64,000 bases of DNA from Roseateles sp. (GCA_052436255.1 JBQVNP010000011.1:3572-67571); one strand, 5' to 3'; counted from the first letter of the stretch, positions 23,838 to 28,130 are shown. A program made the numbers and translations. The notes: a model not told the origin generated them from the letters alone.

Positions 23838-24245
23838 ATGACAAAGCACAAGGTATCCGAACTGACCGGCACGCTGCTGGATGCGGCTGTGGCCCACTCA
23901 AACGGCTGGCCGTATCGCTTGCGCGATGGCAGTTGCGAGGTCGTCGCATCAGTGCCCTTGTACAGCGATCCACCGCCTTCTTTCGGGGAGAGTGGCGGTG
24001 AAATGGACGTGTTCGTTTCGTTCTGTCCATCAACAAGATGGTCGCAGGGAGGCCCGCTCATTGAGCGCGAGCGCATCACCCTGCATGTAGCGGCTGGACG
24101 AACCATTGCCTACGTCGGTGCGGAGTTCATGTCCGACGAGGTGACCTCGTATGTAGCGTCCGGTGACGGCGAGACGCCCCTAATCGCCGCCATGCGCGCC
24201 TTCGTCACCGCCAAGCTGGGCGAAGAGGTGGAACTCCCGGCTTGA
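23838..24245 (+). CDS. NinX/DUF2591-like protein
   Basis: KVSELTGTLLDAAVA...PSTRWSQGGPLIERERI...GETPLIAAMRAFVTAKLGEEVELP. Confidence 0.8.
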   Translation: MTKHKVSELTGTLLDAAVAHSNGWPYRLRDGSCEVVASVPLYSDPPPSFGESGGEMDVFVSFCPSTRWSQGGPLIERERITLHVAAGRTIAYVGAEFMSDEVTSYVASGDGETPLIAAMRAFVTAKLGEEVELPA

Positions 24246-24269
24246 CGCAACCCCTAGCAGCGGTATGAT
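24242..24269 (+). promoter_or_regulatory. pR'-like late promoter
   Basis: TTGACG-16 nt-TATGAT overlapping the upstream stop codon. Confidence 0.7.
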
Positions 24270-24403
24270 CCGCGCCGCAACCACCGCGAGACGACGACCG
24301 CCGCCACACGGCACGATCTTCTGAGCCTCGGCTCTCCATCCGGCGCAATCCGCCTAAGCAGGCTAGCCCTGCGACAAGTCGATGGAAACGCTCGCCCCTA
24401 CCG

Positions 24404-24434
24404 AACCCGCCCACTGAGGCGGGTTTGTCGTTTC
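24404..24434 (+). terminator. tR'-like terminator
   Basis: AACCCGCC-CACTGA-GGCGGGTT followed by TGTCGTTTC. Confidence 0.6.
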
Positions 24435-25075
24435 AGAGTCCACCCAGAGCGTTCGCGCCGCTGGGTTTGAAGTCCTCGGCTCACTGCTGAGGCTGCCCGG
24501 GTTTATCGCCGGGCGTTGGAACTGAGCCGCTGCTGACCTGCGGGCGCGGCCAGGATGATCGGCAGGACCGGACACCTAGGGATCAAGGCGGGCGCTCACC
24601 GGGCGCGCCTGAACGCCTCCCGCCATACCGTGCCAAGTAGCCTCAGAGCGTCATAGCTTGGGCCAAGCCCTGCCGAAATGGCCCCGCACAGAGTAAGCGG
24701 GTGGCAGCCGGGGAAGACCGGCAAGAACAACTGCGGTGTAGCGCATCGGTAGCGCGACGGGCTCATAACCCGAAGGTAGGTGGTTCGATTCCACCCTCCG
24801 CAACCAGGGCAGACTCGGAATCTGGTGGAAAGGGCAGGGGGCGGGAAACCGTGTGACCCCATGCGCGCCGAGTGGAGAAGAACCCAGATTGACGGCCGGG
24901 AAAGACCGGCGCCCCCATGCATGGCGCTTGACTGGTGGGGGTTCCCGCCGGTGGCCAACAGGCGCCATGCATGGGGGTGAACTCCCTGCACCGCTGATGG
25001 TGAAACATGAGACCGGCCCCGATTGCTGTGCGTCCAAGGGTCGGCACTGAACAGCACCGCATAGCAACACCCTCT
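24435..25075 (+). ncRNA. Candidate large structured ncRNA region embedding a tRNA
   Basis: No convincing ORF; many long stems (24477-24483/24523-24529, 24912-24927/24962-24977, 25023-25032/25058-25067), GAAA loops, a repeated motif. Confidence 0.5.
24732..24806 (+). tRNA. tRNA-Met(CAT), initiator-like, phage-encoded
   Basis: Cloverleaf; GGGCTCATAACCC anticodon arm with three G-C pairs; GGTGG-TTCGATT-CCACC T arm; encoded CCA. Confidence 0.9.
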
Positions 25076-25090
25076 TCAACACTGGCCGCC

Positions 25091-25330
25091 ATGCTCTACG
25101 ACTACCGCAACGTCCAGCCGGGCGCCACGGTTTGCAACCTGGACACCAGGGAGCGGATTAACAAGGTGGTCGCCATTGACACCGAGGCCGGCGAAGTAGA
25201 GGTCACTGTCGAACCGCTGCGCATCGTTGATGACAGCTTCGTCACCCAGCGCCTGCGCTTCGTCGCCGTCTGGCCGATCCTGGACCTCGGCATTCCGTGC
25301 GCCTTTCACTGCCACGGTCGCCTGAACTGA
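25091..25330 (+). CDS. Hypothetical protein (79 aa)
   Basis: MLYDYRNVQPGATV... Confidence 0.6.
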   Translation: MLYDYRNVQPGATVCNLDTRERINKVVAIDTEAGEVEVTVEPLRIVDDSFVTQRLRFVAVWPILDLGIPCAFHCHGRLN

Positions 25331-25472
25331 TCACAGCGCCTGTTCATTCCCCTCAGCCAAAAGGGGCCGCCCTGGGCGCCAATACGGGGCGGTAACTCCG
25401 GCGCTGCGCTGCCCGGCGCTCAAGAAACTGGCGGGGCAGCACCGGCAGGCTCCAGCCCTCCGGGGTAGACCG

Positions 25473-25838
25473 ATGGAGCCGCAACCCGTGAAGCTCAAGA
25501 AGCTATCCCCTCGCATCCAGCCGCTGCACAAGTCCAGCTCAGGCTGGGCCAGCGAGGCTCGCCAGAGCAGCGCCGCCCGCGGCTACGACTGGGCATGGAA
25601 CAAGCGCCGCCTGCGCATCCTCGCCAGGGACGCTGGCCTGTGCCAGCCCTGCCTCCGCCGCGGCCACATCACCCCCGACTGCAGGACGGTTGACCACATC
25701 GTCAACAAAGCCAGGGGCGGCAGCGACCACGACTCCAACCTGCAGACCATCTGCGATGGACCAGGGTCGTGCCACAGCGCCAAGACGGCGGCCGAGTCGC
25801 GCGGGCTGGTGTGGGACGAGGCGATGCCTGATCGTTGA
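25473..25838 (+). CDS. Terminase-associated HNH endonuclease
   Basis: RDAGLCQPC...VDHIVNKARGGSD..SNLQTIC...CHSAKT; directly before terS. Confidence 0.9.
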   Translation: MEPQPVKLKKLSPRIQPLHKSSSGWASEARQSSAARGYDWAWNKRRLRILARDAGLCQPCLRRGHITPDCRTVDHIVNKARGGSDHDSNLQTICDGPGSCHSAKTAAESRGLVWDEAMPDR

Positions 25839-26010: not shown

Positions 26011-26418
26011 ATGCCCAGAGGTGGAGCCCGGCCCGGGGCTGGCCGGAAGCCAAAAGCCCCGGGCGCCGCAGCGAAGAAGGCCGCGCCAAAGAAGGCGGCC
26101 GGCTACTCGCCAGACGGCAAGAAATCGGCCGACGCGCCGGCATCCTGGCCGTTCGGGACTGCCGAGCAGCCGCAGCAGCCTGCTGAAGATCTGTCGGAGC
26201 TGACGCCGCTGGCGTACCTGCTTACCGTGGTCCGGAATCCTCTTGCGGAAGAGAAGACCCGCATTCAGGCAGCCAGCATCGCGGCGCCCTACTGCCACGC
26301 CAAGAAGGGCGAGGCCGGCAAGAAAGAGGCTGCGGCCGAGGTTGCGCGCAAGGGCTCGCCTCGGTTCGCCCAGGCTGCCCCGCCTAGGCTGGCTGCGGCC
26401 GGCGGCAAGAAGGTCTGA
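26011..26418 (+). CDS. Terminase small subunit
   Basis: MPRGGARPGAGRKPK...PLAYLLTVVRNP...AAPYCHAK. Confidence 0.85.
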   Translation: MPRGGARPGAGRKPKAPGAAAKKAAPKKAAGYSPDGKKSADAPASWPFGTAEQPQQPAEDLSELTPLAYLLTVVRNPLAEEKTRIQAASIAAPYCHAKKGEAGKKEAAAEVARKGSPRFAQAAPPRLAAAGGKKV

Positions 26419-26420
26419 CC

Positions 26421-28130
26421 ATGGAATGGAGCACAGCCTGCCTCGACTGGGAGCGCAGGCTGATTGATCGAGAGTCGATCATCCCGCCGCCGATCTTCCC
26501 GGACCAAGCTGAGGCGGCGCTGGCCATCTTCAGGCAGCTCCGGGTGGTTGACCTGCCCGGAAAGCCGACATTCGGCGAGTGCAGCGAGCAATGGGTCTTT
26601 GACTTCGTCGCGGCCATCTTTGGCGCCTACGAGGGCGAGACCGGAAAGCAGCTGATCCGCGAGTATTTCCTGCTGATCAGCAAGAAGAACACGAAGTCGA
26701 CCATCGCGGCCGGGATCATGCTGACCGCGCTGGTCATGTGCTGGCGCGAGGAAGAAGAGCACCTGATCCTGGCGCCGACCAAGGAAGTCGCCGACAACTC
26801 GTTCAAGCCTGCCGCTGCCATGGTGCGCGCCGACGACGAGCTGCTGGCCATGTTCCACATTCAGGACCACATCCGCACGATCACCCACCGTGTCACGCGG
26901 TCGTCGCTCAAGGTGGTGGCCGCAGACACGGACACGGTTTCAGGCAAGAAGGCCGGTCGCGTGCTGGTCGACGAGCACTGGCTGTTCGGCAAGCGCGCCA
27001 ACGCCGAGGCGATGTTCATGGAGGCCCTGGGCGGCCAGGTGTCGCGCGAAGAGGGCTGGGTCATCTACCTGTCCACCCAAAGCGACGAGCCGCCGGCCGG
27101 GGTGTTCAAGGAGAAGCTGGGCTATTACCGCGATGTGCGGGACGGCAAGATCGAGGACCGCAAGTCGCTGGGCATCCTGTATGAGTACCCCGCGGCGATG
27201 ATCGCCTCGAAGGCCTACGAGAACCCGGCGAACTTCTACGTCACGAACCCGAATGTGGGGCGGTCGGTCAGCTCAGAGTGGCTGGAAGACCAGCTCAAGA
27301 AGAACCGGGCCAAGCTAGACGGCGCGTTTCAGCAGTTTCTGGCCAAGCATCTCAACGTCGAGATCGGCCTGGGCCTGCGTGCCGGGCGCTGGGCTGGTGC
27401 CGATTTCTGGATGCAGCAGGCGCTTCCGTGCCTGACGCTTGAAGAGCTGATCGCTCGCAGCGAACTGGCCACCATCGGCATTGACGGCGGCGGCCTTGAA
27501 GACCTTTTCGGGCTGTGCGTGCTCGGCCGCGAGACAGAAACCGGCCGCTGGCTGGCGTGGACGAAGGCCTGGGCGCATCCCTCCGTGCTGGAGCGGCGCC
27601 AAAGCGAGGCGTCCAAGTTCCGCGACTTCGAGAAAGACGGCGACATGGTCATCGTGTCGCGCGTGCGGGACGACATCGAGCAGGTCGCCGACATCGTCGC
27701 CATGGTGAACGAGTCCGGCTTGCTGGACCGTGAAGAAGGCAAGAAGGCCTGCATCGGGGTTGACCCTTCAGGCCTGGGCGACACGCTGGATGCGCTGATG
27801 GAAGTCGGAATCCAGGAAGACCAGATCGTCAGCATCAGCCAAGGCTGGCGCTTGATGACCGCGATCCAGACCACCGAGCGGCGCCTGGCCGGCGGCGAGC
27901 TGTGGCACGGCGGGCAGCCGCTGATGGCCTATTGCGTCGGCAACGCCAAGACGACACCGAAGGGAAACGCCGTGATGATCGAAAAAGCAGTCTCCGGTCG
28001 CGGCAAGATCGACCCGCTGATGGCGTTGTTCAACGCTGTCGAGCTGATGAGCCGCAACCCGCAGGCGAACACCGGCTCCGTTTACGACGACATCGCCCGC
28101 CAGCGCGAGCTCGCCGCCCAACCGGCATGA
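26421..28130 (+). CDS. Terminase large subunit
   Basis: ISKKNTKST Walker A, VLVDEHW Walker B, KIDPLMAL nuclease motif. Confidence 0.95.
   Translation: MEWSTACLDWERRLIDRESIIPPPIFPDQAEAALAIFRQLRVVDLPGKPTFGECSEQWVFDFVAAIFGAYEGETGKQLIREYFLLISKKNTKSTIAAGIMLTALVMCWREEEEHLILAPTKEVADNSFKPAAAMVRADDELLAMFHIQDHIRTITHRVTRSSLKVVAADTDTVSGKKAGRVLVDEHWLFGKRANAEAMFMEALGGQVSREEGWVIYLSTQSDEPPAGVFKEKLGYYRDVRDGKIEDRKSLGILYEYPAAMIASKAYENPANFYVTNPNVGRSVSSEWLEDQLKKNRAKLDGAFQQFLAKHLNVEIGLGLRAGRWAGADFWMQQALPCLTLEELIARSELATIGIDGGGLEDLFGLCVLGRETETGRWLAWTKAWAHPSVLERRQSEASKFRDFEKDGDMVIVSRVRDDIEQVADIVAMVNESGLLDREEGKKACIGVDPSGLGDTLDALMEVGIQEDQIVSISQGWRLMTAIQTTERRLAGGELWHGGQPLMAYCVGNAKTTPKGNAVMIEKAVSGRGKIDPLMALFNAVELMSRNPQANTGSVYDDIARQRELAAQPA

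What the first reader, a model, noticed from the sequence alone, without database searches (positions are those of the whole stretch)
24435..25075. About 640 nt of densely structured non-coding sequence around a tRNA, downstream of the late promoter
Seen: a pR'-like promoter, a terminator, then successive helices: CGGCTCA/TGAGCCG enclosing GCCCGG/CCGGGC; CTGCTGA-CCTG/CAGG-ATGA-TCGGCAG (kink-turn-like); GGCGGG/CCCGCC; the tRNA; a perfect 16-bp stem (24912-24927/24962-24977) with an inner hairpin; a 10-bp stem (25023-25032/25058-25067); several GAAA-capped loops. Established: large phage ncRNAs such as GOLLD and ROOL occur in prophages, often near tRNAs. Inference: a large, possibly new, late-expressed RNA or a set of stable RNAs released by tRNA processing. 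I cannot assign it to a family by eye.
Basis: partly seen in the sequence, partly recalled or inferred. Interest (0 to 1): 0.72.

Follow-up and report, generated by a model that had tools for sequence, protein, structure and literature searches.

The report
Chain of phage RNA modules, one new
The 640-base gene-free stretch is not one giant RNA but a string of separate RNA pieces in the leader of a prophage's late genes, including a roughly 200-base folded RNA of a family absent from the RNA family database and a 22-base hairpin that recurs almost letter for letter in over a hundred unrelated phages.

Summary
The gap 24246-25090 is non-coding and lies between a NinX-like early gene and the HNH/terminase genes of a prophage. 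As a whole it folds no better than shuffled sequence (z -1.6), and relatives show it is a mosaic.

- **Late leader:** promoter, conserved 130-nt leader and terminator at 24242-24433. Relatives L112 and L118 have this but lack everything up to 25090, so the rest is optional cargo.
- **New RNA family:** a structured RNA at about 24443-24723. Its part 24537-24701 belongs to a family I defined here: 48 distinct sequences from Burkholderiales prophages and phage contigs. Its five core helices are 89.7% paired against 23-52% for slid controls, and 15 of 21 pairs show double changes. Rfam gives no match even at E<=10.
- **TLH hairpin:** a 22-nt hairpin occurs twice (24702-24723, 24890-24911). It is found in at least 109 unrelated phage contexts, and a tRNA starts 3-8 nt downstream in about a quarter of them.
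- **tRNA-Met:** 24732-24806.
- **Long hairpin:** a 70-nt near-perfect hairpin at 24910-24979 (z -6.7), with no homologue.

Function is unknown. I favour late-made RNAs cut out at the tRNA. A put-like cis role is the main rival.

The parts
24242..24269 (+). Late-promoter-like site (-35 TTGACG, 16-nt spacer, -10 TATGAT)
   Evidence: 10 of 12 positions match, against 0.2 sites expected in shuffles. Equivalent strong promoters stand at the same place in L110, L118, L024 and L102.
24276..24403 (+). Conserved late leader RNA of about 130 nt: four small hairpins and invariant GAUCUUCUG and GAUGGAnnCGYUCGCCCCUA boxes
   Evidence: (A7, 7 sequences): 6 of 28 predicted pairs show compensatory double changes. 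Homologues are L110, L112, L116, L117, L118 and L024.
24404..24433 (+). tR'-like intrinsic terminator hairpin plus U-run
   Evidence: Read directly from the sequence. The weak hit to the terminator part of Pseudomonas P9 sRNA covers it. It is conserved in position with different stem sequences in L110, L024, L118 and L112.
24443..24514 (+). Three local hairpins (24443-65, 24474-92, 24495-514) between the terminator and the family RNA
   Evidence: MFE of 24427-24530 has z -2.2. Only L204 shares them, with compensatory changes (CCCAG/CUGGG versus CCCGC/GCGGG). The comparative evidence is thin.
24537..24566 (+). P1 hairpin: CCUGCGG/CGGCAGG, one G.G mismatch, 16-nt loop
   Evidence: the 3' strand abuts the ACCGG box in all lineages. 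The 7-bp helices differ in sequence (GGAUCAC, CUGCCAG, CUGCAGA, CUGGCAG, CCGCAGG), and the loop is 17 nt in 6 of 12.
24567..24621 (+). 5' domain: ACCGG box (24567-71) and long hairpin H2 (24579-82/24618-21), H3 (24587-90/24614-17), H4 (24591-95/24605-09) capped by loop UCACCGGGC
   Evidence: (A6): in H4, pair 2 is GC7/AU6/CG1 and pair 3 is CG11/AU2/UA1. The structure is 95% paired against 31-43% when slid; independent MFE folds of relatives give the same architecture. H3 is deleted on both strands in L147, L166 and L140. Pairing of the box with the loop is invariant CCGG and so unproven.
24640..24701 (+). 3' core of the new family: Pa 24640-43/24660-63, CA bulge, Pb 24646-49/24656-59, Pc 24672-74/24680-82, Pd 24683-87/24697-701
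   Evidence: Model R1 scores the window at 81.6 bits, E 1e-22. A5 has 48 distinct sequences: 89.7% paired against 23-52% slid, 15 of 21 pairs with double changes, covariation score 0.264 against at most 0.053. G.U pairs (UG 41, GU 30) fit only the + strand.
24702..24723 (+). Hairpin module 'TLH', copy 1 (UGGCA-GCCGG-GGAAGA-CCGGC-A), 8 nt before the tRNA
   Evidence: It is a variant (UGGCA, loop GGAAGA) of a 22-mer found in at least 109 distinct phage contexts. The UGGCA variant also occurs in L254 and L269.
24732..24806 (+). tRNA-Met, anticodon CAU
   Evidence: ARAGORN. Rfam RF00005 at 63 bits.
24807..24889 (+). Spacer with no homologue and no significant fold
   Evidence: MFE z -0.94. No match in loci or genomes.
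24890..24911 (+). TLH copy 2 (UGACG-GCCGG-GAAAGA-CCGGC-G)
   Evidence: The same word occurs in L102 and L103 and in more than 100 viral contigs.
24910..24979 (+). 70-nt near-perfect hairpin (18-bp outer stem, each arm holding the palindrome CCATGCATGG) in the slot where other phages have a tRNA after TLH
   Evidence: -60.2 kcal/mol, z -6.73. There is no other copy in the genome and no homologue. The tRNA model does not match it.
24980..25090 (+).
   Evidence: MFE z +1.0. No homologue.
25091..25330 (+). Small conserved gene (79 aa, ends ..FHCHGRLN), first protein gene after the RNA cargo
   Evidence: the L118 homologue starts MYFGS.., aligned with MLYDY... No Pfam or PHROG family matches.
25331..25476 (+). 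Second conserved non-coding element just before HNH or terminase; invariant GGCGCUGCGCUGCCCGGCGCUCAAGAAA
   Evidence: It is 73-87% identical in L110, L112, L116, L117 and L118, and 6 of 28 predicted pairs show double changes.

Best explanation
The stretch is an island of RNA genes carried as optional cargo in the leader of the prophage's late (packaging and head) operon.

**Proposed sequence of events**
1. Transcription starts at the promoter at 24242-24269.
2. It makes a conserved 130-nt leader and mostly stops at the terminator at 24404-24433.
3. Polymerase that reads through, as late in infection, transcribes the modules in turn:
   - a structured RNA of about 290 nt (24443-24723), whose part 24537-24701 belongs to an uncatalogued family of Burkholderiales phage RNAs;
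   - a 22-nt hairpin handle (TLH);
   - tRNA-Met;
   - a spacer;
   - a second TLH;
   - a 70-nt perfect hairpin.
4. RNase P cutting at the 5' end of the tRNA would free the upstream RNA. TLH plus 8 nt would then be its protected 3' end.
5. The long hairpin would be a second stable or RNase III-cut species.
6. The freed family RNA would act as an accessory late RNA through its invariant loops (GUCAUA, the CA bulge, ..GAGUAA..), as GOLLD and ROOL are thought to.

**Shown:** the modules, their conservation and their base pairing; the strand; the optional-cargo status; the absence from Rfam.

**Inferred:** read-through, processing, stability and any action in trans.
For: **Mosaic, optional cargo**
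- L112 has only 93 nt between the leader and the downstream element.
- L118 has only the 79-aa gene there.
- L110 and L117 carry the RNA.

**RNA family**
- R1 hits the window at 81.6 bits.
- Covariation is strong in 48 distinct sequences and in the 5' domain.
- A 62-nt hairpin is inserted in Pb in some members, and both strands of H3 are deleted in others.
- G.U pairs fit the + strand only.
- Core lengths do not differ by multiples of 3, and most cores have stops in every frame.
- No Rfam hit.
- No conserved neighbouring protein.
- 6 of 401 genomes of the host family carry it, one copy each.

**Discrete unit**
- L204 has the RNA bracketed by two terminators.
- In the window, L150 and L166 it ends a few nt before a tRNA.

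**TLH**
- 109 distinct contexts.
- An ARAGORN tRNA starts 3-8 nt downstream in 23 of them, and none lies on the other strand.
- The looser tRNA-like test gives 25/105 against 3/105 for the control.
- Compensatory and G.U stem variants occur.
- It also ends other large phage RNAs: HEARO in L263 and the early leaders of mEp390 and P7641.
Against:
- All helices of the family RNA are local. No terminal stem joins its 5' and 3' ends, which is more typical of a co-transcriptionally acting leader than of a stable RNA.
- In types A and B the RNA follows its own promoter directly and is followed by a strong terminator and the first late gene. That looks like a cis-regulatory leader.
- Only about 5 of 47 members are near a tRNA, so RNase P release cannot be the general rule.
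- The part 24807-25090 has no comparative support at all.
- The terminator was not called by the simple scan.
Confidence: 0.45

Rival explanations
1. The family RNA is a cis-acting leader that changes the transcribing polymerase, a put-like protein-free processive antiterminator or anti-pausing element. It would let late transcription pass the terminators that follow it.
For: - It is always on the strand of the downstream late genes and near the start of the operon.
- In types A and B the order is strong promoter, then RNA, then strong intrinsic terminator, then RBS-ATG.
- About 18 of 47 members have a terminator-like hairpin within 130 nt downstream.
- No Q-like or other conserved partner protein was found.
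- All helices are local, as expected for co-transcriptional folding.
- putR also lies about 270 nt from its start site (PMC9378689).
- TLH looks like a boxB-type hairpin (own knowledge) and sits in the early PL leader of mEp390, where nut or put sites lie.
Against: - In the window, L204, L110 and L113 a terminator lies upstream of the RNA, so the RNA cannot be what gets polymerase past it.
- Sister phages with the same leader and downstream element (L112, L118) do without the RNA. It is therefore not needed for late transcription in this lineage.
- The RNA is 3-10 times larger than put.
- There is no sequence or structure link to put.
Confidence: 0.3
2. A ligand- or factor-sensing leader, a riboswitch-like attenuator, that sets termination at the hairpin downstream of the core.
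For: The order is a conserved core with invariant loops, then the Pe hairpin, then a terminator, then the first gene, in types A and B.
Against: - No alternative pairing between the core and the terminator was seen.
- The terminator is absent in the window, L150 and L166, where a tRNA follows.
- The downstream genes are unrelated from locus to locus.
- There is no match to any riboswitch class.
Confidence: 0.08
3. The half after the tRNA (24807-25090), apart from TLH copy 2, is functionless spacer. Its long hairpin is a DNA-level palindrome, for example two CCATGCATGG protein sites or a recombination scar, rather than an RNA.
For: - No homologue anywhere.
- Sub-pieces fold no better than shuffles, except the hairpin.
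- Each arm holds a 10-bp palindrome. The exact word occurs in the window only in these two arms.
Against: - The hairpin stands exactly where TLH is followed by a tRNA or tRNA-like RNA in other phages.
- It is about tRNA length.
- z -6.7 is far beyond chance.
Confidence: 0.3

Closest known systems
GOLLD (RF01998) and ROOL (RF03087) RNAs
   Same: These are structured non-coding RNAs of unknown function carried by prophages and phages, sometimes beside tRNA genes. They are modular, with variable peripheral domains. Relatives of this family reach about 450-700 nt with their own promoter (L122, L161).
   Different: There is no match to either model, even at E<=10. The unit in this window is only about 165-290 nt. 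The host range is Burkholderiales. tRNA adjacency is seen in only about 10% of members. Nothing is known about oligomerisation.
HK022 putL/putR antiterminator RNAs
   Same: These are phage leader RNAs made of local hairpins that lie between a promoter and terminators and need no dedicated phage protein (PMC9378689). No partner protein was found here either.
   Different: put is about 70 nt with two stems. This RNA has at least 8 helices. In the window a terminator precedes it, and sister phages lack it. Activity was not tested.
Lambda late leader (pR', 6S RNA, tR') and the tRNA/moron slot behind it in Stx phages such as 933W (own knowledge)
   Same: A promoter, a short conserved transcript and a terminator stand just ahead of the late genes. 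Accessory cargo, tRNAs among it, is inserted right behind the terminator.
   Different: No Q-type antiterminator gene was recognisable. The gene just upstream is NinX-like. The leader is a four-hairpin RNA unrelated to lambda 6S.
Lambda/P22 boxB (nut-site hairpin), compared with the TLH hairpin (own knowledge)
   Same: A 5-bp G+C-rich stem capped by a purine-rich GAAA-type loop. In mEp390 it lies in the PL leader.
   Different: The loop is a hexaloop, GAAAGA. The conserved 5' flank is CUGACA, not a boxA. The sequence is nearly invariant across phages with 34-70% G+C in the flanks, whereas boxB co-varies with each phage's N protein. It often sits 3-8 nt before a tRNA.
Phage tRNA gene clusters with extra stable RNAs
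   Same: tRNA-Met is embedded among other small RNA modules on one strand. In L254 and L150 arrays of tRNA or tRNA-like genes alternate with TLH or with the family RNA.
   Different: Only one canonical tRNA is present here. The neighbours are not tRNA-shaped.

Membership tests
tRNA (Rfam RF00005) | Covariance-model score above 29 bits and a cloverleaf with an anticodon | tested here: met
   63 bits at 24732-24803. ARAGORN calls tRNA-Met(CAU) at 24732-24806.
GOLLD (RF01998) / ROOL (RF03087) | Match to the family covariance model | tested here: not met
   No hit at the gathering score in the window. No hit at E<=10 in 24100-25500. None in 49 related loci or in L122 at E<=5.
GOLLD / ROOL | One large (about 500-800 nt) RNA conserved as a unit | tested here: not met
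   The window's gap is a mosaic. The conserved unit is 24537-24701, or at most 24443-24723.
GOLLD / ROOL | Prophage location, often next to tRNA genes | tested here: inconclusive
   True for the window, L150, L166, L154 and L140, but that is only about 5 of 47 members.
   81.6 bits, E 1e-22, all model positions matched. Pd keeps pairing through CCGG/CCGG changing to CCCGC/GCGGG.
New Burkholderiales phage RNA family, type C | P1 abutting an ACCGG box, then the H2-H3-H4 hairpin with a ..CCGG.. loop | tested here: met
HK022 put RNA | About 70 nt, two stem-loops, the first forming a triplex, binding the RNA polymerase beta' zinc-binding domain | not testable with these tools
   No model or sequence was at hand. 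The description comes from PMC9378689.
HK022 put RNA | Lies between a promoter and the terminators it suppresses | tested here: inconclusive
   Met in types A and B. In the window a terminator also lies upstream of the RNA.
Lambda-type late leader (pR'-tR' with Q) | Promoter, short transcript and intrinsic terminator just before the late genes | tested here: met
   Positions 24242-24433.
Lambda-type late leader (pR'-tR' with Q) | A Q-family antiterminator gene directly upstream | tested here: not met
   The upstream genes are NinX-like (PF10765), a membrane protein and unknowns. No Q family matched, even at E<=1.
boxB / nut site (for TLH) | boxA element a few nt upstream and a cognate N protein | tested here: not met
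   The flank consensus is C-U-GACA with no boxA. An N-like gene was not searched for.
HEARO / IscB omega RNA (RF02033) | Match to the model | tested here: not met
   No hit in the window. The only hit was beside a TLH in L263.

The most novel reading that the evidence does not exclude
The 22-nt TLH hairpin (U-G-R-C-R-GCCGG-GAAAGA-CCGGC-A) would be a universal punctuation or handle signal of phage RNA islands. A conserved bacterial machine, such as a processing nuclease or the transcription complex, would read it. It would mark the boundary between unrelated structured RNAs (this new Burkholderiales family, HEARO, enterobacterial early-leader RNAs) and the next unit, which can be a tRNA, a tRNA-like RNA or the first gene. 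On this reading the window shows two such cassettes. The new family RNA would be one of several ornate phage RNAs that use the same handle.
Probability: 0.2. Interest if true: 0.85.

Novelty: new variant of a known kind. Interest (0 to 1): 0.68.

Why it matters
Large structured phage RNAs such as GOLLD and ROOL are among the least understood RNA classes, and few are known from Proteobacteria.

**A new family with testable features**
- It has strong comparative support, a defined set of helices and invariant loops.
- Short (about 200 nt) and long (450-700 nt) forms can be compared.
- It occurs in prophages of named genera (Acidovorax, Ottowia, Rhodoferax, Azohydromonas), so it can be tested directly.

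**The TLH hairpin may matter more**
- A 22-nt RNA element kept almost letter for letter in phages whose flanks range from 34% to 70% G+C implies a conserved reader.

**Annotation**
- These late-operon gaps are RNA-gene slots rather than empty spacers.

Tried and rejected
**Not one large RNA**
- Whole-gap MFE z is -1.6 on the + strand and -1.3 on the - strand.
- The region is not conserved as a unit.

**No known RNA family**
- Rfam at the gathering score and at E<=10 gave only the tRNA.
- Weak miRNA-type hits simply reflect hairpins.

**No protein-coding explanation**
- The antisense ORFs of 109-153 aa and the small sense ORFs match no Pfam or PHROG family.
- One of these ORFs would overlap the tRNA.

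**Not a host repeat (REP-like)**
- There is no second copy of any part in the 5.7-Mb genome.

**Searches that gave too little**
- DNA search of 100 relatives and 400 family genomes gave only tRNA hits and short chance matches, plus G005, G172 and G299.

**Pattern hits discarded as chance**
- L111, L114 and L115 lie in coding sequence.
- 11 of 16 genome-contig hits were chance.
- L365 and L366 were chance hits for the palindrome pair.

**Ideas dropped**
- Conserved partner gene: none within 3.5 kb.
- Cobalamin-riboswitch or RNase P likeness of type A and B 5' parts, recalled from memory: no Rfam support.
- TLH as a mimic of a host RNA: only 6 of 5426 E. coli genomes hold it, all outside annotated features.
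- TLH co-occurring with the R1 core elsewhere: none in 100 loci.

**Literature**
- No paper holds the TLH word, and word searches found nothing relevant.

Full report
**Setting.** The window is a 65% G+C prophage.
- The gap 24246-25090 follows a NinX-like gene (23838-24245, PF10765).
- After it come a 79-aa gene (25091-25330), a second gap, an HNH endonuclease (25473-25838), and the small and large terminase (26011-28130).
- The start of the 79-aa gene is fixed at 25091 by its homologue in L118.
- No Pfam or PHROG family explains any ORF inside the gap on either strand.
- The genome belongs to the family that holds Azohydromonas and Ottowia (G172 = L174, G299 = L167).

- The promoter-like site TTGACG-16-TATGAT (24242-24269) is the only one in 2.5 kb.
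- The terminator-like hairpin 24404-24433 is present.
- The tRNA-Met is solid.
- The claim of dense structure fails for the whole stretch. The 826-nt gap has MFE z -1.58, and the reverse strand z -1.34.
- Piece by piece, only the hairpin 24910-24979 is exceptional (-60.2 kcal/mol, z -6.7). The other pieces lie between z +1.0 and -2.2.
- In a 65% G+C sequence, helices drawn by eye are expected by chance, so I relied on comparison.

**The region is a mosaic.**
- Flanking proteins and short conserved words led to relatives.
- The promoter, leader and terminator (24263-24410) and a second element (25336-25476) travel together in L110, L112, L116/L119, L117 and L118. What lies between them differs:
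  - 93 nt in L112;
  - only the 79-aa gene in L118;
  - RNA modules in L110 and L117.
- The leader has four small hairpins with compensatory changes plus a terminator whose stem sequence differs between phages.
- The leader also occurs alone in a same-genus genome (L024).
- The downstream element has partial covariation.
- So 24430-25090 is optional cargo in a conserved late-operon leader.

**A new RNA family.**
- The block 24562-24701 recurred in L113, L110, L117, G172 and G299.
- A pattern from its 3' hairpin found 30 viral contigs, 5 true genome hits (Ottowia flava, Azohydromonas sediminis, Acidovorax delafieldii 2AN, a Rhodoferax MAG and a Pseudomonadota MAG) and 57 metagenome stretches.
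- A covariance model of the 3' core (R1: 111 positions, 21 pairs) scores the window at 81.6 bits, E 1e-22.
- The model recovers 56 hits, 48 of them distinct. On that alignment:
  - 89.7% of cells are paired, against 23-52% when partners are slid by 1-3 columns;
  - 15 of 21 pairs show changes on both sides;
  - the covariation score is 0.264 against at most 0.053;
  - no shuffle out of 500 reaches it.
- That alignment was fitted to the model, which favours the structure. The untouched MAFFT alignment gave the same direction: 83.5% against 24-52%, and 0.176 against at most 0.075.
- Telling pair counts are Pa GC34/CG10, Pc UA25/GC17 and Pd GC34/CG9.
- A 62-nt hairpin is inserted in the Pb loop in some members.
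- Frequent G.U pairs (UG 41, GU 30) would be A.C mismatches on the other strand, so the RNA is read on the + strand.
- Core lengths vary by non-multiples of three, and most cores have stops in every frame.

**Helices in the window.**

| Helix | 5' strand | 3' strand |
|---|---|---|
| Pa | 24640-43 | 24660-63 |
| Pb | 24646-49 | 24656-59 |
| Pc | 24672-74 | 24680-82 |
| Pd | 24683-87 | 24697-701 |

A CA bulge lies at 24644-45, between Pa and Pb.

**The 5' domain.**
- Upstream parts come in at least four types. The window is 'type C'.
- Type C has a P1 hairpin whose 3' strand abuts an invariant ACCGG box. The 7-bp P1 helices differ in sequence between lineages, and six share a 17-nt loop.
- A long hairpin H2-H3-H4 follows.
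  - H4 covaries: GC7/AU6/CG1 and CG11/AU2/UA1.
  - H2 and H3 change in step. H3 is missing on both strands in three lineages.
- The H4 loop (..GCCGG..) could pair with the box, but both are invariant, so that pairing is unproven.
- The three hairpins at 24443-24514 are shared only with L204, the closest relative.

**What the family is not.**
- Rfam 15 gives nothing but tRNAs for the window, for 49 related loci, or for L122 at E<=5.
- Blast against 50,697 phage records finds only the tRNA.
- No gene within 3.5 kb is shared by more than 6 of 48 loci.
- The family is sporadic and single-copy: 6 of 401 genomes of the host family.
- Only about 5 of 47 members have a tRNA within 500 nt.
- Types A and B have a strong promoter right before the RNA (450-700 nt in L122 and L161). 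A strong terminator and the first late gene follow it.
- L204 has the RNA between two terminators.

**The 22-nt hairpin (TLH).**
- The hairpin GCCGGG(G/A)AAGACCGGC occurs at 24702-24723 and at 24890-24911. It also occurs in L102 and L103.
Flank G+C ranges from 34 to 70%, and the flanks are unrelated.
- The base before the word is U in 102 of 109 contexts, and the base after it is A in 85 of 109.
- A tRNA starts 3-8 nt downstream in 23 contexts, and none lies on the opposite strand.
- A looser tRNA-shape test gives 25/105 downstream against 3/105 for upstream control segments.
- The other contexts are followed by an RBS-ATG or a terminator.
- Because the scan demanded an exact stem, invariance there is built in. 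Near-matches in the same loci nevertheless show compensatory stems (GUCCG/CGGGC, GCCCG/CGGGC) and G.U pairs. It is therefore an RNA hairpin on this strand.
- L254 has five copies, each before a tRNA or a tRNA-like RNA.
- It occurs in cultured phages:
  - in mEp390 it lies in the roughly 650-nt leader after a PL-like promoter;
  - in P7641 it ends a related leader;
  - in Pokken it opens the gap before a tRNA cluster.
- In L263 a HEARO RNA ends about 50 nt before it.
- R1 finds no family core in 100 TLH loci, so the two are independent modules.
- It is rare in E. coli: 6 of 5426 genomes.
- No paper contains the word.
- I could not identify what reads it.

**After the tRNA.**
- Apart from TLH copy 2, 24807-25090 has no homologue.
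I can neither support nor refute it: z is -0.94 and there are no relatives.
- The 70-nt hairpin starts where TLH copy 2 ends, the slot that tRNAs or tRNA-like RNAs fill elsewhere. The tRNA model does not match it.
- Each arm of the hairpin holds the palindrome CCATGCATGG, so a DNA-level role is not excluded.

**How it most likely works.**
- Shown: modules, pairing, strand and cargo status.
- Inferred: the modules are transcribed late by polymerase that passes the terminator at 24404-24433. RNase P cutting at 24731/24732 frees the upstream RNA with TLH as its 3' end. The RNA acts as an accessory late RNA.
- I give this 0.45. The main reasons are that sister phages with the same late leader lack the RNA, and that it shares its slot with tRNAs.
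- The main rival (0.3) is a put-like cis-acting element. That fits types A and B well.

**Novelty.**
- The family and TLH are absent from Rfam 15 and from the searched literature.
- The general kind, structured phage RNAs in late or early leaders and next to tRNAs, is known.
- Earlier notes of this scan describe analogous unannotated RNAs in other phages. I did not test those.

Noticed in passing
window 24702-24723 and 24890-24911; L244-L362; L363 2501-2523 (mEp390); L369 1501-1522 (P7641); L367 1501-1522 (Pokken): A 22-nt hairpin, U-G-R-C-R-GCCGG-GAAAGA-CCGGC-A, is kept almost letter for letter in at least 109 unrelated phage contexts with 34-70% G+C flanks. It lies in non-coding gaps. A tRNA or tRNA-like RNA starts 3-8 nt downstream in about a quarter of them. 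In the rest an RBS-ATG or a terminator follows. What reads it is unknown.
   Followed up: partly
window 25331-25476: A second conserved non-coding element lies directly before the HNH or terminase genes. It is 73-87% identical in five other phage contigs whose packaging genes differ. It holds an invariant 28-mer, GGCGCTGCGCTGCCCGGCGCTCAAGAAA, and three predicted hairpins. It could be an RNA or a packaging or regulatory DNA site.
   Followed up: partly
window 24242-24433; L024 1448-1635: The promoter, 130-nt leader and terminator form a conserved structured unit with four hairpins that covary. In a same-genus genome (G005) the unit stands alone, with an opposite-strand ORF behind it, as if it were a small RNA gene of its own.
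   Followed up: partly
L254 4711-6165: Five TLH copies lie within 1.5 kb. Three are followed by tRNA-shaped RNAs (acceptor stem, T arm, CCA end) that ARAGORN does not call, and one by tRNA-Leu.
   Followed up: partly
L110 (=L053) 1237-1343: About 10 nt after the family RNA comes a 100-nt tRNA-like sequence. It has a class II-type D arm, a T arm GGGTTCGAATCCC, an acceptor GCAGCGC/GCGCTGC and an ACCA end. Neither ARAGORN nor Rfam calls it.
   Followed up: no
L221, L242, L198, L216, L205, L213 (type A members), about 150 nt upstream of the core: A conserved strong Shine-Dalgarno sequence plus a 4-codon mini-ORF (GAAGGAG-N6-AUG ACC CCC AAC UGA and variants) lies inside the 5' part of type A RNAs. 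It is either a leader peptide or part of the fold.
   Followed up: no
L122/L167 (Ottowia flava), L161, L157, L160, L149: Long forms of the family (about 450-700 nt) begin right after a consensus-like promoter at a conserved start, ACACCCAUCGCA, and end at a strong terminator. They look like stand-alone large RNA genes ahead of the late genes.
   Followed up: partly
window 24732-24806: The tRNA-Met has three G-C pairs in the anticodon stem (GGG/CCC), an initiator-like trait. It also has a paired U1-A72 and a U6.U67 mismatch in the acceptor stem. Its class (initiator, elongator or tRNA-Ile2-like) is unclear.
   Followed up: no
window 25091-25330; L118 5538-5790: A small conserved protein (79 aa, C-terminal FHCHGR motif) matches no Pfam or PHROG family. 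It is the first gene after the RNA cargo in two phages.
   Followed up: no
L363 2230-2472 (mEp390_036) and L369 925-1626: The annotated 'hypothetical protein' mEp390_036 lies inside a leader of about 650 nt that is shared with Klebsiella phage P7641 and ends in TLH. The ORF may be spurious, and the leader may be the enterobacterial RNA noted by earlier agents.
   Followed up: no
L263 586-896 (minus strand): A HEARO (IscB omega RNA) match of 119.9 bits ends about 50 nt before a TLH copy. Unrelated large RNAs therefore carry the same 3' hairpin.
   Followed up: no
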